From assembly GCA_027488905.1 (NCBI GenBank), contig JAIYAT010000010.1, positions 21,061-85,060 of the forward strand: a stretch of DNA of 64,000 bases, in the 5' to 3' direction. This document shows, piece by piece, positions 1-47,685 of this stretch. The stretch is from Bacteroidota bacterium. GTDB lineage: Bacteria > Bacteroidota > Bacteroidia > UKL13-3. Under the pieces are notes generated by a model that made no database searches, was not told the DNA's origin, and worked only from the letters and a program-made list of their open reading frames with translations. The position numbers and the translations under genes were made by a program. The first letter of the stretch is position 1; every line of letters starts with the position of its first letter.

Positions 1-178
1 AAAGCCTCCATCATCCTTACGAACTATGTACCAACTGCCTGTAGATTTTACTACCTGTCCATGAATCATGTTGCAATATATTAAAACTACTTTCACAAAA
101 ATTATATATTTTGCAACGGTTTGCATGCTATTCAAGCAATGGGTAATATTATTTTTTGAATATTCTAGTTTTTTCATA

Positions 179-3938: not shown

Positions 3939-3969
3939 GTTTGAACCAAAACAGTAGATTTGAAATAGT

Positions 3970-4350: not shown

Positions 4351-4420
4351 ATTTTTCTATACTGGATTGAACCAAAATTTCTATTCTGCAATTCAATTCC
4401 AAAGATACTATCTTGCAAGT

Positions 4421-4786
4421 ATGAAAATTCGTATCAAAGGAAATTCAGTTCGTTACCGTTTAAGCAAGTCTGAAGTTGCTAACTTTGGCGAAGTTGGCGC
4501 GTTAACAGAAACTACAGAAACATTAGGTGAAACCTTCTGTTACCAATTGCTTCGTGCGCCAGTTGAAACTTTAACAGTGCATTTTCATCAAAATACCTTG
4601 ACGTTTTCCGTACCGCTAGCCATCGCTCAAACGTGGGTTCAAACCGAAGAAATAGGATATAGCCACAAATTGCAATTGCCCAATGGAACTGAGGTTTACT
4701 TGCTTTTAGAAAAAGACTTTGTTTGCATCGACAATACCTTTGAAGATCAAAGTGATAATTATCCAAATCCCAATGCTGCCTGTTAA
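4421..4786 (+). CDS. Hypothetical protein (start taken at MKIRIKG inside ORF 4322..4786)
   Basis: ORF only; no recognisable motif. Confidence 0.35.
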   Translation: MKIRIKGNSVRYRLSKSEVANFGEVGALTETTETLGETFCYQLLRAPVETLTVHFHQNTLTFSVPLAIAQTWVQTEEIGYSHKLQLPNGTEVYLLLEKDFVCIDNTFEDQSDNYPNPNAAC

Positions 4787-4796
4787 TCACTAATTC

Positions 4797-32202: not shown

Positions 32203-32515
32203 GCGATTTTGCTTTTTTACAATTTCCTAAAATGTCAACTCAAAGGTAAATATTTGAAGCTAAATCCCAATGATTTAAGTAAGGTAAAAAAGGTTTCATA
32301 TAAAAGTTTTAAAGCAGTTTCGGGTTGAACCAAGATGGAATGTAGGGCGTAAGATGTGTTTTTAAAAGCTCCATCGGAGCATCCTGTTTGTAGGAAATGA
32401 TTTGTGTTTAAACAAAGCTCCGTAGGAGCGTTCTGTTGTTGAATAAAATAGATGTGCGTTCCAGATTATTCCAATACCCTTATTGCCGCCAATCGTCTGT
32501 TAGGCACAGTACAGA

Positions 32516-33280: not shown

Positions 33281-33412
33281 GCCTAACGGTTTGAAGATTT
33301 GCGAATTGGCGGATTTGGAACTTCAACCTGTCGACTTGCAACAAAGGTAAGATTGGAAACGGAACGTACAAGTACCTCTTCAACCCGCCATTTTGCAAAT
33401 GTGCTGTTAGGC
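33281..33412. repeat. attC-like recombination site (family C)
   Basis: GCCTAAC at 33281-33287, GTTAGGC at 33406-33412, paired inner boxes TTTGCGAATTGGCGGATT / AACCCGCCATTTTGCAAA, asymmetric 10/6-nt internal loop. Confidence 0.6.
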
Positions 33413-33487
33413 ACAGTTTTTTGTCTTACTTCTTCAATTATTTTTCGTATTATTTATGTCTATTGAAGTTGAAATTAAGTAAAAAAG

Positions 33488-34261
33488 TCAACCTTTATAA
33501 TTCATCTTATTCCTTACGATGTCTATAAAGCCTTTAAATACTAACACAAAAGGATTATAACCAGCAAAACCTGAGGTCACTCCGTACTTCACCTTTTCTT
33601 TTTCAGATTCGTATGTACCAAAAATTTTATCCCAAATAATTAATGTTCCACCAAAGTTCTTGTCAATATAAATGTCGTTTGATCCGTGGTGTACTCGATG
33701 GTTGGATGGTGTGTCAATAATATTTTCTAAAAACCCCAACTTGCCTACCGCTTCGGTATGTAGGAAAAATTGATACAATAAATTAAAAGAATAGCATAGA
33801 ACTATAAAGTCAAGTGGCAGTCCCAAGAAAGCAAGTGGAATGTAAAACACAGGGCTTATCAAAGCACCCAACCAATTAAGTCTGTAAGAAACAGTGAGGT
33901 TATAAAATTGACTTGAATGATGTACCAAATGAAAAGCCCAAAAAAACTTTACCATATGAGAGCATCTGTGAAACCAATAGTAGCAAAAATCTACACCTAA
34001 AAAAGTAATTAAAAACATAAGTGTCGATTCTTCAAAGGTAAACAACCGAAACTGGTAAAAGAGACCAAAAATCCATAACTGATACCCTGCAAAAAGGAAT
34101 TTGGATAGTTGAAATCCTGCAAAAATACTAAGGTTGGCAAGGGTGTCTTTTACACCATAAGCCTTTTTATCTTTACGCCAACTCCAAATAATTTCGGCTG
34201 CAATTAAACCAAAAATAAAAAGGAGGGCGTACAACTTGTATTGTCCAAATTCAAATTCCAT
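33488..34261 (-). CDS. Sterol desaturase / fatty-acid hydroxylase superfamily membrane enzyme
   Basis: Histidine boxes HRCSH, HLVHH, HRVHHG. Confidence 0.75.
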   Translation of the reverse strand: MEFEFGQYKLYALLFIFGLIAAEIIWSWRKDKKAYGVKDTLANLSIFAGFQLSKFLFAGYQLWIFGLFYQFRLFTFEESTLMFLITFLGVDFCYYWFHRCSHMVKFFWAFHLVHHSSQFYNLTVSYRLNWLGALISPVFYIPLAFLGLPLDFIVLCYSFNLLYQFFLHTEAVGKLGFLENIIDTPSNHRVHHGSNDIYIDKNFGGTLIIWDKIFGTYESEKEKVKYGVTSGFAGYNPFVLVFKGFIDIVRNKMNYKG

Positions 34262-34290
34262 AAGATTACTTTGTTTAGATTATTTTTGCA

Positions 34291-34593
34291 TTAATTGGTT
34301 TTCGTCCAAACTATTTCTTTTTTCATCATTCCTTTTTTTACCACAAATCTGATTTTATTTCCTTCTAAATAGGCTTCACAATTTGCGGATGTGTTTTTCT
34401 TCGGATTGCTCAAAATACCTTGCCACTTGCCATCGGTAAATGTTAAATTATTGAGCACCAACACATCTTTTCCTTGTGGTTTTCCAATAAATGCTAAACC
34501 CGATTTGTTTATTTCAATTATGGCACCTTCGGCAGTTTTCCATTGACCCGTAAAATTGTCAGTAGATTTTTGTGCCATTGCAAATACAGTCAT
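34291..34593 (-). CDS. DUF2147-like small secreted protein (start uncertain)
   Basis: GQWKTAEGAIIEI... pattern; upstream in-frame hydrophobic stretch has no ATG; A16 tract immediately 5'. Confidence 0.4.
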   Translation of the reverse strand: MTVFAMAQKSTDNFTGQWKTAEGAIIEINKSGLAFIGKPQGKDVLVLNNLTFTDGKWQGILSNPKKNTSANCEAYLEGNKIRFVVKKGMMKKEIVWTKTN

Positions 34594-34618
34594 TAATAGA
34601 GCTATAAGAAGCGAAATA

Positions 34619-34634
34619 TTTTTTTTTTTTTTTT
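34619..34634. repeat. Homopolymeric T16 (A16 on coding strand) tract
   Basis: Read directly from sequence at 34619-34634, just upstream of the DUF2147-like ORF. Confidence 0.9.
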
Positions 34635-34714
34635 AAAAATTACATAAATTAATGATGCAAATTTATACTCCCAAAGAGGATAAACTCATTAACAAAAGAT
34701 AATAAAGGTTATGA

Positions 34715-35260
34715 TTAATATTTTTTCTTTGAAATACGTTGTCTAATCCTACTCAAAGAAACAGGTGTAATGCCTAACACATTAGCAATGTACTTGTCGG
34801 GTACACGGTTAATCATATTTGGGTAATCTTTAAGATATTGTTGGTATCTCTTTTCAGGGGAGAGAAAAACAAAGGAATCAATTCTTTGAAAAGCTTGTTT
34901 CAAAATTTGTCGACCAAAAATCCTGCTGTCCATTTTTTGAAAGTCTAAATTGTCAGAACTTAAATCTTGAAAAGTTTTTACATCTGTAAAGTACACTTTT
35001 GTTTTCTCCAAAGTTTCAAAGGTAAACTTGGAAGGTTCATCAAATAAAATGGTATGAACATTTCCAAATAGTTGCTTCTCGGCAAACAACTGAAAAGTAA
35101 TTTCCTCACCTTTGTCATTTATCAAAAAACTACGAACCAACCCTTTTCGGATATAGAAGACATTATTTGTTTTATCGCCTTCTTTTATTATACTCTCTCC
35201 TTTATCAAATGTTTTTGAGTTAAGATTTCGTAATAATTTAAAAAGGAATTTTATGTTCAT
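34715..35260 (-). CDS. Crp/Fnr-family transcriptional regulator (start at MNIKF)
   Basis: cNMP-binding-like N-domain and C-terminal HTH (YIANVLGITPVSLSRIRQRI). Confidence 0.65.
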   Translation of the reverse strand: MNIKFLFKLLRNLNSKTFDKGESIIKEGDKTNNVFYIRKGLVRSFLINDKGEEITFQLFAEKQLFGNVHTILFDEPSKFTFETLEKTKVYFTDVKTFQDLSSDNLDFQKMDSRIFGRQILKQAFQRIDSFVFLSPEKRYQQYLKDYPNMINRVPDKYIANVLGITPVSLSRIRQRISKKKY

Positions 35261-35289
35261 TCGTTTTTTTGTTTCTGCGGTAAAATTGT

Positions 35290-35422
35290 GCCTAACGTTT
35301 TGCGGCTTGGCGTAGTGGCGGATTTTTAGCACTAATGCTCATACGAAGAACTGCACTTGAACCTACCACAAAACTGTCATACGAGGCACAGAACTCGCCA
35401 TTACGCCAAACCGCTGTTAGCC
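35290..35422. repeat. attC-like recombination site (family C)
   Basis: GCCTAAC 35290-35296, GTTAGCC 35416-35422; stems TTGGCGTAGTGGCG / CGCCATTACGCCAA; 10/6 asymmetric loop. Confidence 0.6.
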
Positions 35423-35431
35423 ACAGTTATT

Positions 35432-36349
35432 CTAATTCAAATTTCGGAATTCTGTCGGACTTAATCCTACTTTTTTCCTAAACAAACTACTGAAGTAGTG
35501 TGAGTGTTCAAAGCCCAAGGAATAGGCAATTTCTTTTATAGAGTCATCACTACCTAGCAATCGGTCTTTGGCAATTTCCAGAAGGTGAAAGTGAATATGT
35601 TCTTGAGTGGTTTTTCCTGTTTCTTTACGAAGTAAATCACTTAAATAATTGGGGGAAAGATTAACTTGATCCGCACATTGTAATGCTGTCGGAAGCCCTT
35701 TTTCGGGAAGGTTAGCTGAATCAAAGTAGTTTTTTAAATAAGTATTGATAGTATCAATCACCGAATTATTTTCATTTGCTCTGGTAATAAATTGTCGGTC
35801 ATAAAAACGATTACAGTGATTCAATAAATATTCTATTGCGGATATCAATACGTTCTTGGTGTGCTTGTCGATGGGTCGATTGAGTTCAGTTTCTATTGTA
35901 TTGATGATTGACGAAAGGCACACTTTTTCATCTTCGGACAAATGCAATGCTTCGTTCGTGGTGTATTTAAAGAATGAGTATTCAGTAATTTTGTTAAACA
36001 GAGGAGTACCATAAATCAAATCGGGATGAAAGTATAGACCCCAATTATACCTACACTCTTCGAAAACAGGATTTTGAATGGTACTTACTTGTTCAGGTAA
36101 AGAAAAGAACAAGCTACCTTCCTGAAAATCTATTTGCTTTCTGCCATATTGCAAGCTTCCTGACTTCAGATGTTTTAATGTAATTACATAAAACGATGAA
36201 GCCACTTGTAAACCAGTGTGTTGAGATTCCTTCTGATGGTTATCTAATTTTGAAAAATCAATGACACTCACCAAAGGATGCTTCGGTGGGGGGATTTGAA
36301 ACATGTTATGCAACATGCTAATACTTTCGATCCTGATAATATCCTTCAT
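35432..36349 (-). CDS. AraC-family transcriptional regulator
   Basis: C-terminal double HTH (YLSDLLRKETGKT...IAYSLGFEHSHYFSSLFRKKVGLSPTEFR). Confidence 0.8.
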   Translation of the reverse strand: MKDIIRIESISMLHNMFQIPPPKHPLVSVIDFSKLDNHQKESQHTGLQVASSFYVITLKHLKSGSLQYGRKQIDFQEGSLFFSLPEQVSTIQNPVFEECRYNWGLYFHPDLIYGTPLFNKITEYSFFKYTTNEALHLSEDEKVCLSSIINTIETELNRPIDKHTKNVLISAIEYLLNHCNRFYDRQFITRANENNSVIDTINTYLKNYFDSANLPEKGLPTALQCADQVNLSPNYLSDLLRKETGKTTQEHIHFHLLEIAKDRLLGSDDSIKEIAYSLGFEHSHYFSSLFRKKVGLSPTEFRNLN

Positions 36350-36352
36350 TGT

Positions 36353-36838
36353 TTATAAGTTGGATAGTTTTTCAAAATAAGTGTCTATTGATTTTTTTGA
36401 AACGCTTTCAATAATCAGGTTTCCAACCGAAAATATGACCAATGAAAACAGTATTCCTTTTACCAATTCTTTATCAATAAAGAGATTTATAAGCAATGAA
36501 ACAATGATTAATATAACAAGCACAATTTGAATTTTAGGGTGGTTATTTACCACCTTTGCCATTCGTTCCTTTTCTTTTTGATGAAACGTTGCCGAACTTT
36601 CCTTGTATAACAAGGTTTGATTTTTTAGTAATTTTTCTTCTGTCATTTTATACCCAATGCCACTAACAGATGAGAATAATCCAAATATAATCAAACCAAT
36701 TTTCAATCCAATTAATACTGCATTCGACCCGGAAAAATGAATCAGGACAGCCAAAAGTAGCATTATAAAACCCAAAGCCAACATATAGTTGGCAATTGTT
36801 TTTTGGGCGTTAATGTATATTTCCAATTGTTCAAGCAT
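36353..36838 (-). CDS. Hypothetical membrane protein
   Basis: Four hydrophobic segments; no family. Confidence 0.4.
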   Translation of the reverse strand: MLEQLEIYINAQKTIANYMLALGFIMLLLAVLIHFSGSNAVLIGLKIGLIIFGLFSSVSGIGYKMTEEKLLKNQTLLYKESSATFHQKEKERMAKVVNNHPKIQIVLVILIIVSLLINLFIDKELVKGILFSLVIFSVGNLIIESVSKKSIDTYFEKLSNL

Positions 36839-36876
36839 AATTTATTTTTTTAATTTTCGAAGACTGCTGTCCATTC

Positions 36877-37707
36877 TTATTTTATGGATGCGCCCGGCAA
36901 AATTTGGTCTATCAAACCATAACCAAACCATCTTTTCATAAACTTACCCAATTTGCCATCAGCGTTAGGTGCGTATCTTCTTTTTGGAGAACCGCTCTTA
37001 GCTGCATGTAATACGGCTTTTGCAATCGTGTCAGACGAAGCTCCATTTTGGCAACCTTTACTCCAATTTTTCCTGAAATTTTTCATCTGCTCCTTATACG
37101 GTCCGGCATTGGGGTGTTTTTCACACTTATCCAAGTAGGGCAAACTGGCAGTGGGAATATCAGTATTGATGTAGCCCGGCTCGATGAGTGACACTTTAAT
37201 ACCAAATTCTTTGACTTCCATACGTAATCCATCCCCGACACCCTGCTGTGCATGCTTGGTAGCGGGATACCATGCCATACCGGGAGAGCCCATATGCCCC
37301 GCAACTGAGGAAGTAATGATGATTCTACCCGATTTTTGTTTTCTCATGTGGGGTAGCACAGCGGTAAATGCCCGGGCATTGCCTAACACATTGACATCAA
37401 ATTGGTATCTGACATCTTCAATGCTTTGCAACTCTACCGGACCCAAGAGGCAAAACCCGGCATTGGCGAAAAGCACATCGATTCTACCATCATCCTTGAT
37501 AATGGTATCAACTACCTTCTGAATGTCTTCATCCTTTGTTACATCACAAGGCATAACTACTGCTCCCAACACTTCTAAATCTTTCATTAAATGAGTTCTT
37601 CTTGCGGTGGCATATACCTTGAAACCGTTTGCTAATAACATCTTTGCAGATGCGTGACCAATACCGGTTGAAGCTCCAGTAATAAATGCGATTTTTTTAT
37701 TTTCCAT
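36877..37707 (-). CDS. SDR-family short-chain dehydrogenase/reductase
   Basis: TGASTGIG Rossmann motif, catalytic YxxxK (YPATKHA). Confidence 0.85.
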   Translation of the reverse strand: MENKKIAFITGASTGIGHASAKMLLANGFKVYATARRTHLMKDLEVLGAVVMPCDVTKDEDIQKVVDTIIKDDGRIDVLFANAGFCLLGPVELQSIEDVRYQFDVNVLGNARAFTAVLPHMRKQKSGRIIITSSVAGHMGSPGMAWYPATKHAQQGVGDGLRMEVKEFGIKVSLIEPGYINTDIPTASLPYLDKCEKHPNAGPYKEQMKNFRKNWSKGCQNGASSDTIAKAVLHAAKSGSPKRRYAPNADGKLGKFMKRWFGYGLIDQILPGASIK

Positions 37708-37850
37708 TATCTTATCTTTTTTGACGTTTAATAATGGTGCAAATTTAAAATGTCAACCTGTATTACAGATTACACAAATCTCGGATAAGCATTCATTTTT
37801 CTTAGATTGTCTAATAGAGTCTGGTTATTGCGGGTCGCTTTCATAATTGT

Positions 37851-38024
37851 GGCTAACGTTTCGGCGCTTGGCGCAGTAAGGGAATGGTTAGCACAAATTT
37901 TGCCAAGGCACTTTACTCCAAAAATAAACTTTTCTGCCTTTTCTTTTTCCTTTTATTCTAATGCCCTTATTTCGCCAAACGCATTTTATAAGCCGTTTTT
38001 CTTTTCCTTAAAACAGGTGTTAAT
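37851..38024. repeat. attC-like site (family A, long variant with conserved ~100-bp internal segment)
   Basis: Left GGCTAACGTTTCGGCGCTTGGCGCAGTAAGG; internal ccaaaaataaacttttctgcc...ttttattc...gcccttatt; right ...gccaaacgc...; four similar copies in the array. Confidence 0.45.
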
Positions 38025-38538
38025 CAATTTTTTTCAAGCTGTCATTTCCATAATAGTTTTTCTCCCACTCAGAAATATCAACTTTTTCAATTTCTTTTTG
38101 CCTTTTTTTTTCATAATCATTTGCATTAATAACCCCAAATAGAATCCAAAATGTCGTCCCGCCTAAAAGCAAAAAAAGTCGTTGATTAAATTTCTTTTGA
38201 TAGTTCTCCTTTTTAAGTTCACTTAATGAAAGACCAACTGTCCACTGTCTTGCTAGAATAAATGGAGCCATAAGAAAAATATAAATCATTTTTTCTATTG
38301 TATAGCTTTCGGTCTCGTTTTGTTCTAATTTTTTTTGATAAGCTAATTCTAATTTTTCAGCTTTCTTTTTCCATCTGTCTAAAGTCTTATCTTGGTCGTA
38401 TCGGGTAACTTTCCGTTTGTTTAGTTCGTCCTTTGCTTGGTCTATTGCGTCTTGTTGCCAATCATCAATTGTTCCATTTGCAATTGCAATTAGTTCTTCA
38501 GTGTCACGCCTTGAAATTGGTGGATTAAACTCTATCAC
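38020..38538 (-). CDS. Hypothetical membrane protein (cassette ORF)
   Basis: ORF with two central TM helices. Confidence 0.35.
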   Translation of the reverse strand: MIEFNPPISRRDTEELIAIANGTIDDWQQDAIDQAKDELNKRKVTRYDQDKTLDRWKKKAEKLELAYQKKLEQNETESYTIEKMIYIFLMAPFILARQWTVGLSLSELKKENYQKKFNQRLFLLLGGTTFWILFGVINANDYEKKRQKEIEKVDISEWEKNYYGNDSLKKID

Positions 38539-38570
38539 TATGGTATCTTTTAAAATAGCTTAAAACGTTT

Positions 38571-38692
38571 GCCAGCTACGAGAAGTTGGAGCCTGTCAGC
38601 ACAAATATAGTTGCCCAGAACCAATTTCAATTAACCACAAATGTGTCAGCGTAGCGCTGAACCGCCAATTTGTTGTTGGTGCTGTTTTAGGC
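38571..38692. repeat. attC-like site (family C2; left arm degenerate)
   Basis: Right arm aaccacaaatgtgtcagcgtagcgctgaaccgccaatttg...GTTTTAGGC nearly identical to the 43290 copy. Confidence 0.4.
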
Positions 38693-38725
38693 TGTTATTT
38701 TTCATGAAATCATTTGGTCATGTTA

Positions 38726-39238
38726 CTAAATATAATGTACCGATATTCCTTTTGCACTAGATAATTGTCTTAAAATTGTATAAAGTTTATTTTTCTCAAA
38801 ATCGTTGTGGAGATAGATATTCATTTGGTAAGTTTCATTTTTAGAATCGATTATTGAAATCACATTCTTTCTGCCGCTATTAAAAGCACCTAGAACTATT
38901 AGAGTGGAGTTGTTTTCACCAAAGCAACCATCAAAGTGAAAGATTATTTGTTTTGGTTTTATTGTTTTTTTTATATGTGTTAATGTTTCAATTTCAATTT
39001 CATCACTATAAAGATTAATCTGTCCAGTTTTATGTTTGTCCTGAAAAAAAAATCTTAAGAATTTAAGTAATATTATGATAACGAATGTAAATGGACCTAA
39101 AACATAAAAATATTTTTCAACCAAATTTAAATGAAATGATAATAAAATTAGTCCAATACTAAAAAAGCCGATACTAAAAGACCAAATGTTATACTTTATG
39201 TCCTTAGGATTTACGATGTCAAATGTTGCTTTATACAT
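38726..39238 (-). CDS. Hypothetical membrane protein (cassette ORF)
   Basis: ORF, N-terminal TM helices. Confidence 0.35.
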   Translation of the reverse strand: MYKATFDIVNPKDIKYNIWSFSIGFFSIGLILLSFHLNLVEKYFYVLGPFTFVIIILLKFLRFFFQDKHKTGQINLYSDEIEIETLTHIKKTIKPKQIIFHFDGCFGENNSTLIVLGAFNSGRKNVISIIDSKNETYQMNIYLHNDFEKNKLYTILRQLSSAKGISVHYI

Positions 39239-39242
39239 AATA

Positions 39243-39388
39243 GCCTATAACGTTTATACGCTTGGCGCAGTAAAGGAATCGTTGGCTCTTTTTCTCCTCA
39301 ATATGTTACTCCAAAAATAAACTTTTCTGCCGTTTCTTTTCCCTTAAAATCCTCAAGCCGTTATTGCATCCAAACGCGTGTTAGCGGC
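39243..39388. repeat. attC-like site (family A)
   Basis: GCCTATAACgtttatacgcTTGGCGCAGTAAAGG ... CCAAACGCGTGTTAGCGGC; arms pair with 10/6 loop. Confidence 0.5.
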
Positions 39389-39407
39389 TGCTCCTTTTGC
39401 TCAGTGG

Positions 39408-40079
39408 CTATAAGTACATTTTCAAATTTTCGTTTTCATCTGTCTGATACAATTCATTAAGTAATACTTTCATCTGGTCATTATTTTTGAAGTTGTTGCC
39501 TGTAAATTGTTTAATTCTATTTATTACTTCTTCTGAATCCCATGATGCAATATTACTAGCAAATCTTACTACCATCCCATTGCAGCGCATATCAATTGTT
39601 CCACCCTCGGTGACGTATTGAAGTTGTTGTTCTGTAACCCCCAAACCTGTAATGTCAACAGTTCCGTTATCTAAGGGGTGTTTTGTGTAATTATTTTGAC
39701 TGGCAATTTCTAAACTCGAGACTTCGGATATTGAGAATGATTTTGTCTTAATTGATCCAAATTGTTTGTTAATAATAGTAATCTGGTCTTTCGATATTTC
39801 AAGTGATTCCCTATTCAATACTTTCTTTAGATATTCTCTACCAGCAAGTACATATACCACGCATAATGCAATAATTATTATGGCAGCAATGGGAATGTCT
39901 GCAATTAACCTTATTGTAACACTAGTAAGAAATAGTGCGGTAGCGATTAATAATACTCCTTGGAAAATTAGACCAAACTTTATGATTGGACTTACTGATG
40001 GATAAATCTCTATTTTTAGTTTGTCTTTACTTTCAGTAAACTTTAGGGTTTCTTTCATTTTTGATTTAGTAGTGGGCAT
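39408..40079 (-). CDS. Hypothetical membrane protein (cassette ORF; start at MPTTK, ORF track gives 40139)
   Basis: ORF with two TM helices; trimmed so as not to run into the attC-like site. Confidence 0.35.
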   Translation of the reverse strand: MPTTKSKMKETLKFTESKDKLKIEIYPSVSPIIKFGLIFQGVLLIATALFLTSVTIRLIADIPIAAIIIIALCVVYVLAGREYLKKVLNRESLEISKDQITIINKQFGSIKTKSFSISEVSSLEIASQNNYTKHPLDNGTVDITGLGVTEQQLQYVTEGGTIDMRCNGMVVRFASNIASWDSEEVINRIKQFTGNNFKNNDQMKVLLNELYQTDENENLKMYL

Positions 40080-40111
40080 AAACAATGGTTGCACATGGAG
40101 TTGCAGATATC

Positions 40112-40233
40112 GTTTGACAGCTAATCGCAGATGGCCCAATTGCGGACCATTCTTCGTGATAGCAGCTTATCAAATATAGAAAAATTTCGCCTAAGAACAA
40201 CTAGGGCCATTTGTATTTAGGTGATGTTATGCC
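40112..40233. repeat. attC-like site (family B, left end truncated)
   Basis: ...AGCTAATCGCAGATGGCCCAATTGCGGACC ... GGGCCATTTGTATTTAGGTGATGTTATGCC; near-identical to copy at 41599. Confidence 0.4.
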
Positions 40234-40243
40234 TAGTTAATTT

Positions 40244-40915
40244 TTAAAGAATCATTGGTGCCATATTGAAATTTGTGTCTAATTTTTTATTTCCAATGGA
40301 GTCAAACATTTGGAATTTCCCGTTTAATAATGAACCGCCACCTACTTTATTATTATAATAAGGTTTCTTATACAATTTCCAGTTTTCTATAGTATTAATT
40401 TTCCCATTTTTAAAGTAACTTTTAAGGACACCTGATGGCAACCCCGTATTGTAATTATTCAACCGAATATATGTGCCCTCAAACCAAATATTTCCGTTCT
40501 CATATGGTACTTTTACATAGACACTATCCTCGTATATAATGATACCTTTCAGAGCAAATGCTTTAGTATAGTATGGATGAGTGTTGTTAAAATATTCTGG
40601 AATAACTGACCATTGTATCTTGCCATTTTTAAAAAGAGCTAATGAAACTAATTTGTTCTTTTGTGAGAAATGGAATATTTTGGAAATACTATCTAGCTCA
40701 TTGTCTTTATAAAATACTTCTCTGATTTCATTATTTAAAGAGTCATTTATTTTCCATAATCCTTGTTTTAATCCTTTTTCATCTATAAAGTTAATTTCAG
40801 TCTTTATTTTAATATTACTTATTGAATCGGCAATTGGAATTTGTTGATTTTTAGCGTCCTTTCCTTGGTTAAAACAAGAGGAAATGAATAATATTATTAT
40901 GTAATGAAATTTCAT
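40244..40915 (-). CDS. Lipoprotein with MORN-variant (YwqK-like) repeats
   Basis: Lipobox SSC; repeated ...KNGKI...G.W..Y..NG units. Confidence 0.45.
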   Translation of the reverse strand: MKFHYIIILFISSCFNQGKDAKNQQIPIADSISNIKIKTEINFIDEKGLKQGLWKINDSLNNEIREVFYKDNELDSISKIFHFSQKNKLVSLALFKNGKIQWSVIPEYFNNTHPYYTKAFALKGIIIYEDSVYVKVPYENGNIWFEGTYIRLNNYNTGLPSGVLKSYFKNGKINTIENWKLYKKPYYNNKVGGGSLLNGKFQMFDSIGNKKLDTNFNMAPMIL

Positions 40916-40924
40916 CTTATAAAT

Positions 40925-41080
40925 TGGGCATTACGCTGTTTGTGTTCTTGGCGCAGTAAGGGAATGGTTACCACAAATTCGCTCAAGCACTTTACCCCAA
41001 AAATAAACTTTTCTGCCGTTACTTTTTCCTTTTATTCCAATGCCCTTATTGTGTCAAACGTGTCTTATGTGCTGTTATTT
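40925..41080. repeat. attC-like site (family A)
   Basis: gggcattacgctgtttgtgttcTTGGCGCAGTAAGG ... internal conserved block ... gtcaaacgtgtcttatgtgctgtt. Confidence 0.45.
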
Positions 41081-41578
41081 TTGCATGATTACATTTCTTT
41101 CTAGCTCTTTAAATAATGTCCACATATTTGTGACTTTGTTATAAAAGAACTTAGTTACTCGAACGTCCATTAAGGCTTGAGTTTGAAACAAAAAGTCCGA
41201 ATAAATGTCTTCTCTCCATTGAACAATATCTCCACTAATTATGACTTCTATTGTGTCGGTTTTTAGTACTTTGCGATAAATATTGTAAATGTATCTGCCG
41301 CTGTCCGCATTGTCTCCTTGGCATATGGCTTGTCTTGGTGTCTGATGTGCAATGAACCTAAAATGGTTTTGCCCGACTTTTCCATTTAGTAAAGTGGAAT
41401 CCAAGTCTGTCCGCATAATAATATAGCCATACCTCTTTTGGTCTTGATGGATAGATGAGTCAGAAAAATATTTTCTAATTGTCATATTATAAAGTCTTGA
41501 CAAATCTTTTTCAGTAGGCTTTTGACCAAAAGAAATTGTTGCCAACAAGATTGCTAGAATTAACATAAATTTAGGCAT
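41075..41578 (-). CDS. Hypothetical secreted protein (cassette ORF)
   Basis: Signal peptide MPKFMLILAILLATISFG. Confidence 0.35.
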   Translation of the reverse strand: MPKFMLILAILLATISFGQKPTEKDLSRLYNMTIRKYFSDSSIHQDQKRYGYIIMRTDLDSTLLNGKVGQNHFRFIAHQTPRQAICQGDNADSGRYIYNIYRKVLKTDTIEVIISGDIVQWREDIYSDFLFQTQALMDVRVTKFFYNKVTNMWTLFKELERNVIMQK

Positions 41579-41598
41579 ATTTTGTCGTCATTATAATA

Positions 41599-41732
41599 GC
41601 CACTAACGTTTAATTGCTAACCGCAGATGGCCCAATTGCGGACCATTCTTCATGATAGCAGCTTATCAAATATAGAAAATTATTCATAGCGAACAACCGA
41701 AGGGCCATTTGCGGTTAGGTGTTGTTAGCGGC
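41599..41732. repeat. attC-like site (family B, complete)
   Basis: GCCACTAACgtttaattGCTAACCGCAGATGGCC ... GGCCATTTGCGGTTAGGtgttGTTAGCGGC, clear inverted arms. Confidence 0.5.
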
Positions 41733-41780
41733 TGTTTTTTCTTTATTCCGAAGGTGTGTTGTTGAATGCACACACATAGT

Positions 41781-42368
41781 TTATTCAATGTTTGATAAAT
41801 CTAAATAATCTCCGCTGTCATGCCCTATGGCTACAAATAATTTCTCATTGCTTGTCAAAAAGAGTTTCCTGTTGAGTTTCGTTCTGATAATTTCATCAAA
41901 TGTCAACGAACAATAAGCTAGCGGTAAAATCCAGTCGAGGAATTCATAATTGTCTTTGTCAGTTCTTGCTATGTCTTCAATTTGTTGTAGCAAAGTTGGC
42001 TGAGCATAACTATTCTCTGGAACATAAATTGGGTCTAAAGCCCAATCTAAATCATCCTTTTCATACTTGTCCGCACCTGCTAAATAAATTGTTGGAATTT
42101 CTTTTTCATTATCCTCAAATTTTATAATACCTATCCAAAGCGCAACAACACTGCTTGGAAGCGGCGAGATTGTTACAAGATTTTGAAGCCATTCAAGAAT
42201 ATCTGCTTGTTCTTTGTCAATATCTAAATTTCGCAAGGCAGTCCAGTAAGGTTTAGGATTTGTGCTTTCGTGATTGTCAATAAAACTATTCCAAGCATCT
42301 TTTGCAGTTAGTTTTGCAGCGAAAATCGATGTCAAGCTATCCCAAGATTTGTCATGTTGAAATTCCAT
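41781..42368 (-). CDS. Hypothetical cytoplasmic protein (cassette ORF)
   Basis: ORF only. Confidence 0.35.
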   Translation of the reverse strand: MEFQHDKSWDSLTSIFAAKLTAKDAWNSFIDNHESTNPKPYWTALRNLDIDKEQADILEWLQNLVTISPLPSSVVALWIGIIKFEDNEKEIPTIYLAGADKYEKDDLDWALDPIYVPENSYAQPTLLQQIEDIARTDKDNYEFLDWILPLAYCSLTFDEIIRTKLNRKLFLTSNEKLFVAIGHDSGDYLDLSNIE

Positions 42369-42418
42369 ATCAGTTTTTTTCTGCTATCAGTTTAATGTTT
42401 GCACGATGATCCTATAAT

Positions 42419-42565
42419 AGCCGCCAATGTTTGTGTTCTTGGCGCAGTAAGGGAATGATTAGCACAAATTTCGCTCTTGCGCTTTAAGCCAAAAATAAAC
42501 TTTTCTGCCTTTTCTTTTTCCTTTTATTCTTAAGCCCTTATTGCCGCCAAACGCGTGTCGGCAGT
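42419..42565. repeat. attC-like site (family A)
   Basis: tagccgccaatgtttgtgttcTTGGCGCAGTAAGG ... gccgccaaacgcgtgtcggcag. Confidence 0.45.
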
Positions 42566-43289: not shown

Positions 43290-43419
43290 GCCAACGTTTT
43301 CGGGCTTGGCGAAGGTGGCGATTTTCACCACAAATGTTGATGCGGAAAACCAAACTTTGATTAACCACAAATGTGTCTGCGGAGCACTGAACCGCCACTT
43401 TTGCCAAACCCGTGTTACC
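43290..43419. repeat. attC-like site (family C2)
   Basis: GCCAACgttttcgggcTTGGCGAAGGTGGCG ... CGCCACTTTTGCCAAacccgtGTTACCT; 10/6 loop. Confidence 0.5.
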
Positions 43420-45300: not shown

Positions 45301-45519
45301 ACTTGTCTGAATAAACTGTTTTGTCCATTTGACACAATTCAACCTACAAGTGTGAAGTGAAATTTGAAATTTTTTTGAGGTTTGTCGTTTAGGGTTGCAG
45401 GTAACTCTTTTACTTGCGAAGCAAAATACTAAATTAAGGTTAATTATTGTGAAATTGCCGATGGAAATTATCGTTTTATTGAAAGTTAGCAATTGATTAA
45501 TTTAGGTTCAGAAAGGCTC

Positions 45520-45756
45520 CTAACTCTCCAATACACCCGCACTCACACCCACACTCTTGCTCACACTCACACTCTTGCTTTTCACTCTTTCTCTTCCCTC
45601 TTTCTCTTCCCTCTTTTTCTTCCCTCTTGCTCCATACTGCTTATGTACCCCGCAATCAGTTTGGAGTGTGAGTCTTGAGCAAGAGTTTACGCACTTAATG
45701 AGAGTCTTCCAAAGCACTCTTTCTCCTCCCTCTTGCTCCATACTGCTTAGGTACCC
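45520..45756. repeat. Polypyrimidine (CT / CA-CT) low-complexity tract with ~45-bp internal direct repeat
   Basis: cactcacacccacactcttgctcacactcacactc... ctctttctcttccct units; ctcttgctccatactgctta(t/g)gtacccc occurs twice. Confidence 0.8.
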
Positions 45757-45758
45757 CC

Positions 45759-46022
45759 TTGGATTATCGTGATTACCCCCTTGGATTAACATGGACACCC
45801 GCTTGGATTAACATGGTTACCCCCTTGGATTAACATGGTTACCCCCTTGGATTAACATGGGTACCCGCTTGGATTAACATAGGTACCCGCTTGGATTAAC
45901 ATGGGTACCTGCTTGGATTAACATGGGTACCCCCTTGGATTAACATGGGTACCTGCTTGGATTAACATAGGTACCCGCTTGGAGCATCGTGGGTACCCCC
46001 TTGGTGTAACATATATAAGAAG
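45759..46022. repeat. 22-bp tandem direct repeat, ~12 copies (consensus TTGGATTAACATGGGTACCCSC), iteron-like
   Basis: Units begin at 45759, 45781, 45803 ... 46001 with exact 22-bp phasing; terminal copies degenerate. Confidence 0.9.
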
Positions 46023-46065
46023 GGGAAGCATAAAGTAGATTGTGTAAACTTGTGTAAGATTTGGT

Positions 46066-46125: not shown

Positions 46126-46962
46126 TTATAAGCCGATTTTACTGAAAAATTTAAATGGTATTACCTGATGATGTTCTGAACTGGTTCTGCCAAATGTACC
46201 ACGGATATTTGCTTTCACTTGGCGGCCTAATATGATGATTCCGTTTTCTTCATTATAAAATAGTACATCGCGTTTGTGACGCGCATAGGTTAGGGTATTC
46301 TCTAAAGCATTTACCTCATCATTTATCTGCTCCAATTTTAACTGATAGGCTTTTAGGGCTGCTATCTCGAGTTCGCTTTGGTTGGGTTTATAATTGGGTA
46401 TCATTTCTAGAAACTCAATAAACTGCAAAAAGTCTTCTGCTCTTTTTTCTAAGGTAAGATAGGCTCCTATGTGTTTGCTTGGTTTAGACTCACCTGTTTC
46501 AGCGGGTGCCGATTGCTTTTTGTTATAGCCCTTAATTTGTTTAACCACCAAGTATAGGTCATGGTAAAGGCTTTTGTCTACCCCCTGCGATTGCAGCATG
46601 TCTAGTATCCTACTGAGCATCTGGTTTTGGTCCTTGAATAGGTTCAACCTACGCGTAGTGGCATTTAAATAATCCGTTTCTGCATCACTTACCTTTTTAA
46701 TGGCCATTCGACTCTGTGAAAGGAAGTCTTCCAGAGTGGCTAGGCTTAGGTTGGGGTTAGAAGGGTTGTAGGCGGTACCGAATTTCTTCACTACATCAAT
46801 CAAACCAGAGAAATTGTTCATTTTAGCTGTAAAGCTAGATAGATTGTGCTTGTTCATATTTTTATGTATTAATAATGACACTGCAAGTATTGACATAAAA
46901 GGCTGAACAGTAAAGGCTAAATAGTTTGATATTACGCAGATACAAGCTATGTTCTTGCGCAA
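46126..46962 (-). CDS. Hypothetical protein adjacent to the 22-bp repeat array (start uncertain)
   Basis: ORF only; no tyrosine-recombinase or Rep motifs recognised. Confidence 0.4.
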   Translation of the reverse strand: MRKNIACICVISNYLAFTVQPFMSILAVSLLIHKNMNKHNLSSFTAKMNNFSGLIDVVKKFGTAYNPSNPNLSLATLEDFLSQSRMAIKKVSDAETDYLNATTRRLNLFKDQNQMLSRILDMLQSQGVDKSLYHDLYLVVKQIKGYNKKQSAPAETGESKPSKHIGAYLTLEKRAEDFLQFIEFLEMIPNYKPNQSELEIAALKAYQLKLEQINDEVNALENTLTYARHKRDVLFYNEENGIIILGRQVKANIRGTFGRTSSEHHQVIPFKFFSKIGL

Positions 46963-47145
46963 ATTGCATATGCAAGGACAATATCCTAGGCAAACACCCT
47001 TTCATTTGCATATTTCGCAAATAAACCAGCACTTAATTTGCACTACACCCAAATGGAAAGTAATTTTTTTACACCAAATGCAATTTTATTTTGGGCAAAT
47101 TGGGGAGTTGAAGCAGACCATGGTCCATCGACAATGGTCCATGGT

Positions 47146-47685
47146 CTACTCCAACTCCCTTTTCTCAGCTGCCCTTTTTATTTCAAACAAACCTTCCTCA
47201 AAACCAGCCTCAGTTGATTTAATCTTGGAAGGGAGCATAAACCTAAAAATTGGGTTATAACCCACATCGCCAGAATCTACCCAAATTAGGTGCGTTTTAT
47301 TGGCCACAGGCTTAAAGTAAAAAGTAGCTTCGGAATGCATGGTGCCTTCATTGATGCTTAAATCATAATGAATCATTTCATTTTGTTGGCTCTTAGTTAT
47401 TTTAAACCTTCCAATCCCTACTAGGCCACCTCTAAAATACTGGGCCGCCCCTTGGCCGCTCTTCACTTTGCTATAAAAGCTAACCATAGAACTGTCTAGT
47501 TGGGTATTCCACGGACTCCAATCGGCCCAATTGCGAATGCTGTTCATGTAGGCATAAGTTTCATATACAGGCTTGTTAATAACCGTGCTGCGCTCTATAC
47601 GGTAGGTTTTAGGAAAAAGCAAGGAAACCAAAAACACCAATCCAACTAATCCTAAGATGGCCGCAAATATTCCAAATAATTTCAT
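47146..47685 (-). CDS. SRPBCC-superfamily (polyketide-cyclase-like) protein with N-terminal anchor
   Basis: N-terminal TM helix plus SRPBCC-like length and pattern. Confidence 0.5.
   Translation of the reverse strand: MKLFGIFAAILGLVGLVFLVSLLFPKTYRIERSTVINKPVYETYAYMNSIRNWADWSPWNTQLDSSMVSFYSKVKSGQGAAQYFRGGLVGIGRFKITKSQQNEMIHYDLSINEGTMHSEATFYFKPVANKTHLIWVDSGDVGYNPIFRFMLPSKIKSTEAGFEEGLFEIKRAAEKRELE

What the first reader, a model, noticed from the sequence alone, without database searches (positions are those of the whole stretch)
37851..42565. Long ~150-175 bp attC family with a highly conserved ~100-bp internal module
Four sites at 37851, 39243, 40925 and 42419 share near-identical internal sequence. 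It reads ttggcgcagtaagggaatggtta(g/c)cacaaatt..., then ccaaaaataaacttttctgcc, then ttttattc...gcccttatt...gccaaacg. Only the terminal arms provide the inverted-repeat pairing. Such homogeneous, species-specific attC repeats are typical of sedentary chromosomal integrons, like the VCR repeats. The conserved insert could carry a promoter, a terminator or a protein-binding site serving each cassette.
Basis: seen in the sequence. Interest (0 to 1): 0.55.

Follow-up and report, generated by a model that had tools for sequence, protein, structure and literature searches.

The report
Cassette recombination sites with invariant core
The four repeats are real integron-type cassette recombination sites (attC) in a Bacteroidota chromosome, and the middle of their loop stays identical even where the recombination signals have decayed, so it probably has a second job, most plausibly switching on the next gene.

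Summary
Observation confirmed. Four about 136-nt copies (37854-37988, 39248-39383, 40931-41067, 42425-42560) share an exact 21-mer (0.03 expected by chance).

They are 4 of 10 complete hairpin sites, plus one remnant, that separate co-oriented minus-strand gene cassettes between 32.4 and 45.4 kb.

Evidence that these are attC-type sites:
- TAAC...GTTA boxes.
- A stem of about 20 bp with strong compensatory covariation across 26 site families.
- Cassette-flanking inverted repeats that show crossover inside the boxes.
- An attI-like leader at 45402-45512.

No integrase was found in the window or next to any related array, so this is a CALIN.

The array interleaves four families (A, B, C, D). Family A is also shared by at least four other Bacteroidota MAG species.

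The internal module is the hairpin loop. It has no significant fold, no Rfam hit, no conserved ORF and no terminator. Its 26-40-nt core is invariant in all ten diverged copies, even though three window copies have mutated AAC/GTT triplets. That argues for selection unrelated to recombination.

The core carries a cassette-sense Bacteroidota -7 box (TATTTTTG). Eight of ten window sites have such a box, and none has one on the antisense strand. Promoter function is the leading reading but is unproven.

The parts
37854..37988 (-). Family A attC copy 1 (A1). R' (left, + coordinates) is the intact GTTAGCC on the sense strand. R'' is degenerate (TAAA instead of TAAC).
39248..39383 (-). Family A attC copy 2 (A2). 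This is the most diverged copy (78% to the consensus), and both TAAC and GTTA are intact. The start codon of the next cassette lies about 10 nt beyond the box.
40931..41067 (-). Family A attC copy 3 (A3). Both core triplets are mutated (TTAC for TAAC; CTTA for GTTA).
42425..42560 (-). Family A attC copy 4 (A4). Both core triplets are mutated (CAAT for TAAC; GTCG for GTTA).
37908..37949 (-). Invariant loop core of A1. The same core lies at about 39301-39342, 40987-41028 and 42479-42520. The + strand reads TTTACnCCAAAAATAAACTTTTCTGCCnTTnCTTTT. The sense strand contains TATTTTTG, which matches the Bacteroidota -7 consensus TAnnTTTG.
33284..33409 (-). attC site D1. Its loop carries sense-strand TTG-19 nt-TACCTTTG.
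35293..35419 (-). attC site D2.
38563..38689 (-). attC site C1. It is a mosaic, with the right half 86% identical to C2.
40108..40229 (-). attC site B1. Its loop carries sense-strand TTG-19 nt-TATATTTG.
41604..41727 (-). attC site B2. It is 92% identical to B1 over 76 nt. It has the same TTG-19 nt-TATATTTG, but the spacer sequence has diverged.
43292..43417 (-). attC site C2, the attC of the first (three-gene) cassette.
32455..32502 (-). Truncated family-A-like attC remnant at the distal end of the array. Only the R''-L'' half is present (cccttattgccgccaatcgtctGTTA).
45402..45512 (-). attI-like junction and leader. TAAC is at 45402-45405. The adjoining block of about 110 nt is 91% identical (120-nt BLAST alignment) to the start of the array in MAG contig L008. 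Homology stops exactly at ...GAG|TTA.
45704..46055 (-). About 16 tandem 22-nt direct repeats, each containing GTTAATC on the sense strand. They lie upstream of the attI-like leader and are conserved in L008.

Best explanation
The four repeats are one family (A) of attC-type recombination sites. They mark the 3' ends of gene cassettes in a chromosomal integron-like array of a Bacteroidota bacterium.

How the site works:
- The + strand, which is antisense to the genes, is the strand that folds.
- It forms a TAAC/GTTA box stem, then a one-sided GTTTT spacer, then a stem of about 20 bp, then a loop of about 85 nt.
- A tyrosine recombinase that has not been found here would cut in the TAAC/GTTA box. 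This makes each ORF plus its downstream site a mobile unit.

What the module is:
- The 'conserved 100-bp module' is the loop (the variable terminal structure) of this family.
- Its central 26-40 nt are kept invariant by selection that does not depend on recombination.
- The most likely reason is that the core acts in cassette expression, as a cassette-sense Bacteroidota -7 promoter element (TATTTTTG). Transcription would start inside the loop, downstream of the 5' arm of the hairpin.
- That would give the next cassette, which has no promoter of its own, a transcript that cannot form the hairpin.

Shown: the repeats, the hairpin with covariation, the cassette boundaries, the array polarity, the excess conservation of the core, and the presence and strand bias of the motif.

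Inferred: that an integron-type integrase acts on these sites, and that the core is a promoter.

My split of confidence: attC-type site about 0.85; core under separate selection about 0.6; promoter about 0.35.
For: Site identity:
- Ten complete sites plus one remnant separate co-oriented minus-strand ORFs.
- The boxes read GCCTAAC...GTTAGGC, which fits the RYYYAAC/GTTRRRY consensus quoted in PMC5027507.
- Across 26 site families, 90.5% of stem cells pair against 72% in shuffles (0 of 500 shuffles reach this). Sixteen of 24 pairs show compensatory changes. The covariation score is 0.444 against 0.132 in shuffles and at most 0.094 when the partners are slid.
- The 10 nt beyond GTTA of site n pair with the 10 nt before TAAC of site n+1 at 7.98 of 10 positions. 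The same comparison within one site gives 5.49, and random pairs give 4.75 (p = 3e-10 and 1e-19). This is the expected mark of crossover inside the box.

Polarity:
- All ORFs are on the minus strand.
- The attI-like leader with upstream direct repeats is at the 5' end of the array in both the window and L008.
- The + strand arms are more stable in 24 of 30 families, have more G:T pairs (1.87 against 1.10), and have purine-rich loops in 24 of 30 families. These match the bottom-strand traits described in PMC5027507.

Cassette content is typical of integrons: PIN/VapB, many ORFans and regulators.

Core:
- Columns 72-97 are almost all identical, with a 21-column fully invariant run (77-97), in 10 copies that are 78-100% alike overall. 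The neighbouring columns 45-71 diverge.
- Three window copies have mutated AAC/GTT triplets but keep the core intact.

Promoter reading:
- A perfect sense-strand TAnnTTTG lies in 8 of 10 window loops and in 0 of 10 on the antisense strand.
- Across 30 families, TAnnTTTG is present in 7 on the sense strand against 0 on the antisense strand (shuffles give 2.0).
- The full motif TTG-17..21-TAnnTTTG is present in 4 against 0 (shuffles give 0.19).
- B1 and B2 keep TTG-19-TATATTTG although the spacer sequence has diverged.
- Several cassettes have only 12-35 nt between the box and the start codon.
- There is a precedent for a promoter bridging an attC in Vibrio DAT722 (PMC2945992).
Against: Against the attC assignment:
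- No IntI gene was found in the window.
- No IntI gene was found next to any of about 120 related loci. Only Xer-like genes lacking the IntI-specific insertion were seen, and two of them belong to IS91-type elements inserted into sites.
- The asymmetry differs from canonical attC. The 5-nt unpaired spacer is on the arm that carries the cleaved AAC, and extrahelical bases are not a general feature.

Against the promoter reading:
- Family A has no -33 TTG at 17-21 nt from its -7 box.
- TAnnTTTG is common in this AT-rich DNA, with 125 matches in the window.
- The recurrent loop motif is really nAnnTTTG(TG). It is phased at 39-40, 57-60 and 75-78 nt from the site end with an 18-19/37-nt periodicity. 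That pattern looks more like an array of protein-binding sites, or like shared descent.
- Two members of the largest family carry TTCG in the box.
- No expression data exist.
Confidence: 0.55

Rival explanations
1. The module is only the family-specific loop of the attC and has no function of its own. Its conservation reflects recent spread of family A cassettes, or gene conversion between copies.
For: Nine of 16 known copies are 98-100% identical although they sit in different MAGs, which suggests recent horizontal spread. Sites in this superfamily are mosaics, for example C1 and the L027/L074 pair, so patchy conservation can arise by recombination. Long conserved attC interiors are normal in chromosomal integrons (general knowledge of VCRs).
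Against: The diverged copies (A2 at 78%, L004 at 82%, A1 and A4 at 87-88%) keep about 26 consecutive core columns identical, while the adjacent loop columns differ at about half of their positions. With about 50% invariant columns, a run of 21 or more is expected in roughly 1 of 10,000 alignments (my estimate). The core outlasts the recombination triplets in A1, A3 and A4. The same core is invariant in separate genomes, so conversion within one genome cannot explain it.
Confidence: 0.25
2. The loop core, and the phased nAnnTTTG units of the sister families, are binding sites for a protein that assists recombination or folding. The protein could be the unknown recombinase, an accessory factor or a nucleoid protein. 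This would resemble the arm-type sites of other tyrosine-recombinase systems.
For: Loops of the superfamily are built from units of 18-19/37 nt (autocorrelation z = 5.5 and 10.7). The strand-specific motif sits at fixed distances from the R' end. Site length is strikingly uniform, at 125-128 nt in most families. The attI-like side carries about 16 direct repeats, which resembles a multi-site protein platform.
Against: In the window, three of the four A copies have lost the conserved AAC/GTT triplets but keep the core. That is unexpected if the core served only recombination. Family A lacks the clear 19-nt unit structure. No candidate protein was found.
Confidence: 0.15
3. The repeats are not integron sites at all. 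They would instead be another kind of intergenic palindromic element (REP or MITE-like), or sites of a different recombination system.
For: No IntI gene was found anywhere near them. The spacer asymmetry is non-canonical. Complete integrons are very rare in Bacteroidetes genomes according to IntegronFinder 2.0 (PMC9024848).
Against: A MITE or REP model does not predict that the sequences flanking each ORF block are inverted repeats of each other. It also does not predict a leader junction that stops exactly at G|TTA, or one site per co-oriented cassette. A group II intron sits at the GT|T of one site, and IS91-type elements sit at the GTT box of two others. At least the intron insertion is typical of attC sites (PMC7923331).
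Confidence: 0.08
4. The module encodes a small peptide or a structured small RNA.
For: An ATG in GGAATGG opens short + strand ORFs that run through the module.
Against: The reading frames and lengths differ between copies: 25 aa in A1, a frameshifted 46 aa in A3, 10 aa in A4 and 35 aa in the MAG copies (read). There is no Rfam match even at E <= 1. The folds are no better than shuffles.
Confidence: 0.02

Closest known systems
attC sites of sedentary chromosomal integrons (for example Vibrio cholerae repeats, VCRs)
   Same: One imperfect palindrome lies at the 3' end of each cassette. RYYYAAC/GTTRRRY-type boxes are present. One strand folds, and it is more stable and richer in G:T pairs. The outer boxes are chimeric because crossover occurs inside the box. 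Lengths are above 100 nt, with family-conserved interiors.
   Different: Several unrelated-looking families are interleaved in one array, and they are shared between species. The interior is an unstructured loop rather than a long imperfect stem. The unpaired spacer is one-sided (5 nt against 1 nt) and lies on the AAC arm of the folded strand. Extrahelical bases are not general. The outer box pairing extends to about 14-16 bp. No integrase lies next to the array.
CALIN (cluster of attC sites lacking an integron-integrase; Cury 2016 and IntegronFinder 2.0, PMC9024848)
   Same: The array has at least 2 attC sites and no intI nearby. Several core triplets have decayed, which fits the idea that CALINs are degraded integrons.
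   Different: An attI-like leader with direct repeats is still present at the head of the array, and it is conserved in a second species.
Intra-array and attC-bridging promoters, and promoter-bearing gene-less cassettes (Vibrio sp. DAT722, PMC2945992; Vibrionaceae superintegrons, bioRxiv 10.1101/2023.11.21.568050)
   Same: Transcription of distal cassettes from promoters inside the array, one of which was mapped across an attC.
   Different: Here the candidate element is a conserved part of the attC loop itself. It uses the Bacteroidota -7/-33 grammar and recurs in several attC families. It has not been tested.
Group IIC-attC introns (PMC7923331)
   Same: In L010, a group II intron lies at the GT|T of the box of a family A site, directly after the hairpin.
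   Different: It lies on the cassette-sense strand. Classical IIC-attC introns sit on the bottom strand, opposite to cassette transcription.

Membership tests
integron attC site | Terminal boxes R'' RYYYAAC and R' GTTRRRY, with conserved AAC/GTT | tested here: met
   TAAC and GTTA are invariant or nearly invariant in 26 families. D1 and D2 read GCCTAAC...GTTAGGC/GTTAGCC. Within family A in the window the triplets are intact only in A2 and in the R' of A1.
integron attC site | Imperfect inverted repeat that folds as a single-strand hairpin, with conserved structure rather than conserved sequence | tested here: met
   Covariation across families: 90.5% paired, 16 of 24 pairs compensatory, 0 of 500 shuffles reach the observed values. 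Within family A, 88% of cells pair but there is little variation.
integron attC site | Strand asymmetry: extrahelical bases on the arm opposite the cleaved AAC, with a bottom strand that is more stable, purine-rich and richer in G:T pairs | tested here: inconclusive
   Stability, G:T count and purine skew favour the + strand as the bottom strand. The unpaired spacer, however, is 5 nt on the AAC arm and 1 nt on the other arm, and only family A has a single extrahelical T on the opposite arm. Family A loops are pyrimidine-rich on the + strand.
integron attC site | One site at the 3' end of each cassette, with crossover in R' so that the outer box halves flanking a cassette are complementary | tested here: met
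   Flank test: 7.98 of 10 positions pair for adjacent sites, 5.49 within one site and 4.75 for random pairs. All ORFs are co-oriented.
integron attC site | Recognised by the IntegronFinder or HattCI attC models | not testable with these tools
   These models are not available here. Rfam has no attC family.
complete (sedentary chromosomal) integron | An intI gene with the IntI-specific domain adjacent to attI and the array | tested here: not met
   tblastn with IntI1 and with a Xer-like query finds nothing in the window at E <= 1. The 18 kb upstream of the leader holds no recombinase. Xer-like genes near related sites score 128-172 bits against the 265-bit cut-off of TIGR02249 and lack the insertion. 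The rest of the source genome could not be searched.
complete (sedentary chromosomal) integron | An attI site at the head of the array | tested here: inconclusive
   A conserved leader ends at G|TTA, with direct repeats containing GTTAATC upstream. This resembles the attI1 architecture as I recall it. It is seen in only two genomes, and no binding has been shown.
CALIN | At least 2 attC sites with no intI within the cluster | tested here: met
   Ten complete sites plus one remnant, and no integrase.
Bacteroidota sigma-A promoter (-33 TTG / about 19 nt / -7 TAnnTTTG; consensus from my own knowledge of Bayley 2000 and Chen 2007) | A -7 box TAnnTTTG in the sense orientation upstream of a gene | tested here: met
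   TATTTTTG lies inside the invariant core of all family A copies.
Bacteroidota sigma-A promoter (-33 TTG / about 19 nt / -7 TAnnTTTG; consensus from my own knowledge of Bayley 2000 and Chen 2007) | A -33 TTG at about 19 nt from the -7 box | tested here: not met
   Family A has none at 17-21 nt. Families B, D1, L021 and L081 do have one (18-19 nt).
Bacteroidota sigma-A promoter (-33 TTG / about 19 nt / -7 TAnnTTTG; consensus from my own knowledge of Bayley 2000 and Chen 2007) | A mapped transcription start | not testable with these tools
   No expression data are available.

The most novel reading that the evidence does not exclude
Bacteroidota carry their own branch of integron-like cassette systems. 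Its recombination sites have a fixed length of about 126 nt and a one-sided spacer on the cleaved arm. Their loops are built of phased 18-19-nt units. These loops double as portable expression modules, so that every cassette delivers the promoter for its downstream neighbour. The system may be served by a recombinase that is not encoded next to the array and is not a classical IntI.
Probability: 0.2. Interest if true: 0.75.

Novelty: new variant of a known kind. Interest (0 to 1): 0.5.

Why it matters
In the integron model, cassettes have no promoter and depend on one promoter at the platform, so it is unclear how long arrays are expressed.

If the loop of these sites is a promoter, expression would be built into the recombination site itself, and reshuffling cassettes would rewire transcription.

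Integrons are barely documented in Bacteroidota. [quoted passage not shown] A defined site superfamily with strong covariation, a candidate attI and a missing integrase therefore gives a concrete entry point for finding how cassettes move in this phylum.

The non-canonical asymmetry also bears on how the integrase chooses the strand it cuts.

Tried and rejected
1. Small ORF in the module: rejected. The frames and lengths differ between copies.
2. Known RNA family: no Rfam hit at the gathering threshold or at E <= 1, and no tRNA.
3. Structured loop: fold energies of whole sites are no better than shuffles. A small hairpin around the core (GGCA/TGCC) is not conserved between copies.
4. Sigma-70 promoters and intrinsic terminators: counts are at or below shuffle level, and none lies in family A.
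5. Opposite polarity, with the + strand as the coding-sense 'top' strand so that each attC would sit upstream of its own ORF. I considered this seriously because of the position of the 4-5-nt bulge, the purine-rich minus strand of the A loops and the orientation of the intron in L010. I rejected it after the 30-family strand statistics and the attI-like leader.
6. My own AAC...GTT stem scanner was far too permissive, and a strict one was too insensitive. A fuzzy arm search gave 71 sites, all on one strand.
7. Mapping exact cassette ends from shared cassettes in different contexts: the best pair (L027/L074) ends in unrelated insertions and was uninformative.
8. Looking up cassette proteins in other assemblies returned only the same context or nothing.
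9. ORF 46126-46857 as a possible platform gene: its homologues in other Bacteroidia sit next to repeat-rich DNA. They have no integrase nearby and no family hits.
10. Xer-like genes near sites in L005 and L085 belong to IS91-type elements inserted at the GTT box. The one in L055/L039 is frameshifted and lacks the IntI insertion.
11. The large L021 family was too uniform to test conservation of the promoter elements.

Full report
**1. The observation**

The region contains four direct copies of one repeat. The repeat finder reports a 4-member family at 37843, 39237, 40922 and 42414. The four copies align with 79% mean column identity.

The 21-mer CCAAAAATAAACTTTTCTGCC occurs exactly four times in the 64-kb window, all on the + strand, against 0.03 expected from shuffles. 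CTTGGCGCAGTAAGGGAAT also occurs four times.

Between the conserved end boxes the copies span 37854-37988 (A1), 39248-39383 (A2), 40931-41067 (A3) and 42425-42560 (A4).

- a short box stem;
- a stem of about 20 bp (TTGGCG..TAAGGG with CCCTTA..CGCCAA);
- a loop of about 85 nt;
- total energies no better than shuffled sequence (z from -1.6 to +1.6).

**2. The surroundings**

The four copies are not alone. Between about 32.4 and 45.4 kb every ORF is on the minus strand. The ORF blocks are separated by ten complete palindromic sites plus one truncated remnant.

| Site | Coordinates |
|---|---|
| remnant | about 32455-32502 |
| D1 | 33284-33409 |
| D2 | 35293-35419 |
| A1 | 37854-37988 |
| C1 | 38563-38689 |
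| A2 | 39248-39383 |
| B1 | 40108-40229 |
| A3 | 40931-41067 |
| B2 | 41604-41727 |
| A4 | 42425-42560 |
| C2 | 43292-43417 |

All share the same plan on the + strand..TAAC, an unpaired GTTTT, a GC-rich stem, a large loop, the return stem, one unpaired base, then GTTA.. The loops fall into families. B1 and B2 are 92% alike over 76 nt, and C1 and C2 are 86% alike over 49 nt. The array is therefore heterogeneous, with family A interleaved among the others.

The genes are typical cassette cargo:
- a PIN/VapB toxin-antitoxin pair;
- a sigma-70 region-2 protein;
- a SnoaL-like protein;
- an SDR, an AraC-type and a Crp-type regulator, and a fatty-acid hydroxylase;
- many ORFs with no family.

**3. 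Are they recombination sites?**

Three independent tests say yes.

*Relatives elsewhere.* A scan of 185,579 species genomes with the 21-mer found family A in eight contigs of four Bacteroidota MAG species. It also gave three chance hits inside genes. A metagenome scan with the left-arm pattern gave 107 further stretches. From these I collected 76 sites in 30 loop families, all detected on one strand only.

*Covariation.* I aligned one member of each of 26 families and tested the TAAC/GTTA stem together with the 20-bp stem.

| Measure | Observed | Control |
|---|---|---|
| Cells forming a standard pair | 90.5% | 72% in shuffles (0 of 500 reach it) |
| Pairs with changes on both sides | 16 of 24 | 10.4 in shuffles (0 of 500 reach it) |
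| Covariation score | 0.444 | 0.132 in shuffles; at most 0.094 with slid partners |

*Flanks.* The 10 nt to the right of GTTA of one site pair with the 10 nt to the left of TAAC of the next site at 7.98 of 10 positions, and 23 of 56 pairs are perfect. The two flanks of the same site pair at only 5.49, and random pairs at 4.75 (p = 3e-10 and 1e-19).

Each ORF block is therefore bounded by inverted repeats that would complete the box stem if the block were circularised. This is exactly what crossover inside the R box of an integron attC produces. The boxes themselves fit the consensus quoted in PMC5027507; D1, for example, reads GCCTAAC...GTTAGGC.

**4. Polarity**

This took some work, because the 4-5 extra bases sit on the arm that carries 5'-AAC-3' on the + strand. 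By the rule in PMC5027507 that would make the + strand the top strand and put all the genes in antisense. The wider evidence points the other way.

- Across 30 families the arm hairpin is more stable on the + strand in 24 (mean difference 1.6 kcal/mol; Wilcoxon p = 9.5e-5).
- It has more G:T pairs on the + strand (1.87 against 1.10; p = 0.0013).
- The loops are purine-rich on the + strand in 24 of 30 families.
- These are the bottom-strand traits reported for 263 attC sites in PMC5027507.
- A G:T pair at one stem position is present in 23 of 26 families on the + strand.

In addition, the right end of the array carries a block of about 110 nt (45406-45512) that is 91% identical over a 120-nt BLAST alignment to the start of the array in MAG contig L008. 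Read on the minus strand, homology stops exactly at ...AAAAGAG|TTACCTGC in the window and ...GAGAG|TTAGCGGC in L008. The cassette-side box there is complementary to the outer box of C2 at 9 of 10 positions (my reading). Upstream lie about 16 tandem 22-nt repeats, each containing GTTAATC (45704-46055).

This is the layout of an attI site with upstream direct repeats. The comparison with attI1 rests on my own memory of that sequence.

Conclusion on polarity: the minus strand is the coding top strand, the + strand is the strand that folds, and each attC follows its ORF in the canonical way. I put this at about 85%. The one-sided spacer on the cleaved arm is then a genuine departure from canonical attC sites.

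**5. No integrase**

- Ten large ORFs outside the array are ordinary genes.
- The ORF next to the repeats (46126-46857) has homologues in other Bacteroidia. It has no family hits, and in those genomes it neighbours repeat-rich DNA and a giant adhesin gene rather than a recombinase.
- Among about 120 related loci, only Xer-like genes turned up. They score 128-172 bits against the 265-bit cut-off of the integron-integrase model and lack the IntI-specific insertion.
- Those in L005 and L085 are part of an integrase-plus-IS91 element inserted right at the GTT box of a site.

The locus is therefore a CALIN in the sense of PMC9024848. The rest of the source genome could not be searched. The source is an unnamed organism assembled from runs such as SRR30952588.

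**6. The conserved module**

Sixteen family A copies are known. Nine of them, from the MAGs and one metagenome contig, are 98-100% identical to the consensus. L008 and L007 are 92-94% identical. The window copies are 78-91% identical, and L004 is 82%.

In the 10-sequence alignment, conservation is very uneven:
- Columns 72-97 (TTTACnCCAAAAATAAACTTTTCTGCC) are almost all identical in every copy, with a 21-column fully invariant run (77-97). The next 15 columns are mostly identical as well.
- Columns 45-71 of the same loop differ at about half of their positions in A2 and L004.
- The spacer next to the box also varies.

With about half of all columns invariant, a run of 21 or more invariant columns is expected in roughly one alignment in ten thousand (my estimate).

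The window copies have also lost recombination signals while keeping the core:
- A1 has TAAA for the R'' TAAC.
- A3 has TTAC and CTTA.
- A4 has CAAT and GTCG.

The core is therefore maintained by something other than recombination competence, or else it is far more resistant to change for reasons I cannot see.

**7. What the core is not**

- Not a conserved ORF. The short + strand frames differ in every copy.
- Not a known RNA. There is no Rfam hit even at E <= 1.
- Not a significant fold.
- Not a sigma-70 promoter or an intrinsic terminator.

**8. What it may be**

On the cassette-sense strand the invariant core reads GGCAGAAAAGTTTATTTTTGG. It contains TATTTTTG, a perfect match to the Bacteroidota -7 box TAnnTTTG. 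That consensus comes from my own knowledge of the Bacteroides and Flavobacterium promoter literature.

Evidence in favour of a promoter:
- In the window, 8 of the 10 complete sites have a perfect sense-strand box in the loop (A1-A4, B1, B2, C1, D1). None has one on the antisense strand. At the window-wide density I estimate about 0.08 expected per loop strand.
- Across 30 families, the motif counts are strongly biased to the sense strand:

| Motif | Sense | Antisense | Shuffles |
|---|---|---|---|
| TAnnTTTG | 7 families | 0 | mean 2.0 |
| TTG-17..21-TAnnTTTG | 4 families | 0 | mean 0.19 |
| HAnnTTTG (H = A, C or T) | 22 families | 5 | 4.2 ± 2.0 |

- B1 and B2 both keep TTG-19 nt-TATATTTG, while the middle of the spacer has diverged at most positions.
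- Several cassettes leave only 12-35 nt between the box and the start codon, about 10-13 nt after A2 and A3. They therefore cannot carry promoters of their own.
- A start inside the loop would give a leader that contains only one arm of the hairpin. That would avoid the hairpin formed by read-through transcripts. This last point is inference.
- A sigma-70 promoter bridging an attC has been mapped in Vibrio sp. DAT722 (PMC2945992).

Evidence against a promoter:
- Family A has no -33 TTG at the right distance.
- The 8-mer is common in this AT-rich genome, with 125 matches.
- Two members of the largest family have TTCG in the box.
- The general loop motif is really nAnnTTTG(TG). It is placed at 39-40, 57-60 and 75-78 nt from the site end, within loops that show 18-19-nt and 37-nt periodicity (z = 5.5 and 10.7). 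That regular architecture, together with the nearly fixed site length of 125-128 nt, could equally reflect a phased set of protein-binding sites or simply shared descent.

I therefore rank the promoter reading first, at only about 35%. A function-free loop gets about 25% and a recombination or folding accessory site about 15%.

**9. Comparison with what is known**

As a kind, these are attC sites in a CALIN. The defining features I could test are met: boxes, hairpin with covariation, position, and chimeric flanks. The integrase is missing, and the strand asymmetry is atypical.

Compared with VCR-type repeats, they differ in four ways:
- The array mixes families.
- The families cross species boundaries.
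- The interior is a loop rather than a stem.
- The outer box pairing reaches about 14-16 bp.

Integrons have been reported in Bacteroidota (PMC8618304), but only rarely in complete genomes (PMC9024848). I found no description of this site superfamily in four literature searches, and that is not proof that none exists.

**10. Verdict**

- The interpretation as attC is supported.
- The analogy to homogeneous, species-specific repeats is not supported.
- The suggestion of an embedded signal is plausible, and the data sharpen it: an invariant core that outlives the recombination signals and contains a sense-strand -7 box.

I classify this as a new variant of a known kind, of moderate interest. It would rise considerably if transcription starts map to the core, or if the missing recombinase proves unusual.

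Noticed in passing
window 45704-46055 (minus-strand sense); also L008 1-130: About 16 tandem copies of a 22-nt unit (GTTAATCCAAGSGGGTAMCCAT) lie directly upstream of the attI-like leader and are conserved in a second species. Each unit contains a core-site-like GTTAATC, so they may be binding sites for the missing recombinase. The related genome L121 has quite different low-complexity repeats at the equivalent place.
   Followed up: partly
window 45402-45512; L008 321-440: A leader of about 110 nt is 91% identical (120-nt BLAST alignment) between two species. Its homology ends exactly at G|TTA, where the first cassette begins, which makes it a candidate attI. No integrase gene lies next to it in the window.
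   Followed up: partly
L010 about 2560-4483 (minus strand of the locus): A group II intron (RT/maturase 2664-3887; TIGR04416, 393 bits) is inserted in a family A site at ...CAAAACGT|T. It begins GTGTG and has a recognisable domain V. It lies on the cassette-sense strand, whereas classical IIC-attC introns lie on the opposite strand.
   Followed up: partly
L005 (window-like orientation 4320-6377) and L085 3190-4449: An element encoding a Xer-like tyrosine recombinase (followed by an IS91-family transposase in L005) abuts the GTT box of an attC-like site in two unrelated contigs. The element ends are conserved (ACTAAACCTnnGGTAGCC). It appears to target these sites.
   Followed up: partly
L055 5274-6370 and L039 (same sequence): A frameshifted Xer-like recombinase gene starts 120 nt from an attC-like site in GC-richer DNA. 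The site's right box is replaced by GTGTGTCCCG, possibly the 5' end of another group II intron. Direct repeats (GGTGGTGTAGTTTCC) follow.
   Followed up: no
30 attC families from window and loci L001-L118: The loops show 18-19-nt and 37-nt periodicity (z = 5.5 and 10.7). A strand-specific motif, nAnnTTTG(TG), sits at 39-40, 57-60 and 75-78 nt from the R' end. Site length is almost fixed at 125-128 nt.
   Followed up: partly
window 40108-40229 and 41604-41727 (B1, B2); 33284-33409 (D1): These sites carry a full Bacteroidota promoter consensus on the cassette-sense strand: TTG, 19 nt, then TATATTTG or TACCTTTG. Between B1 and B2 the spacer sequence has diverged but its length has not.
   Followed up: partly
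window 32366-32434: Two copies of a small hairpin motif (AAGCTCCATCGGAGC / AAGCTCCGTAGGAGC) lie 49 nt apart. They replace the missing half of the truncated family-A-like site at the distal end of the array.
   Followed up: no
window 45520-45700: Low-complexity direct repeats (CACTCACAC..., CTCTTTCTCTTCC..., and a duplicated CTCTTGCTCCATACTGCTTAGGTACCCC) lie between the leader and the 22-nt array. They are partly conserved in L008.
   Followed up: no
window 47103-47159: A near-perfect 26-nt inverted repeat (88% complementary, 5-nt loop) overlaps the 3' end of ORF 47146-47685. It may be a terminator or a binding site.
   Followed up: no
window 33417-35293 and 35419-37854: Two 'cassettes' are unusually large (1.9 and 2.4 kb) and hold three genes each, including regulators (Crp-like, AraC). 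At least one has its own TAAATTTG box upstream of the SDR gene, at about 37740.
   Followed up: no
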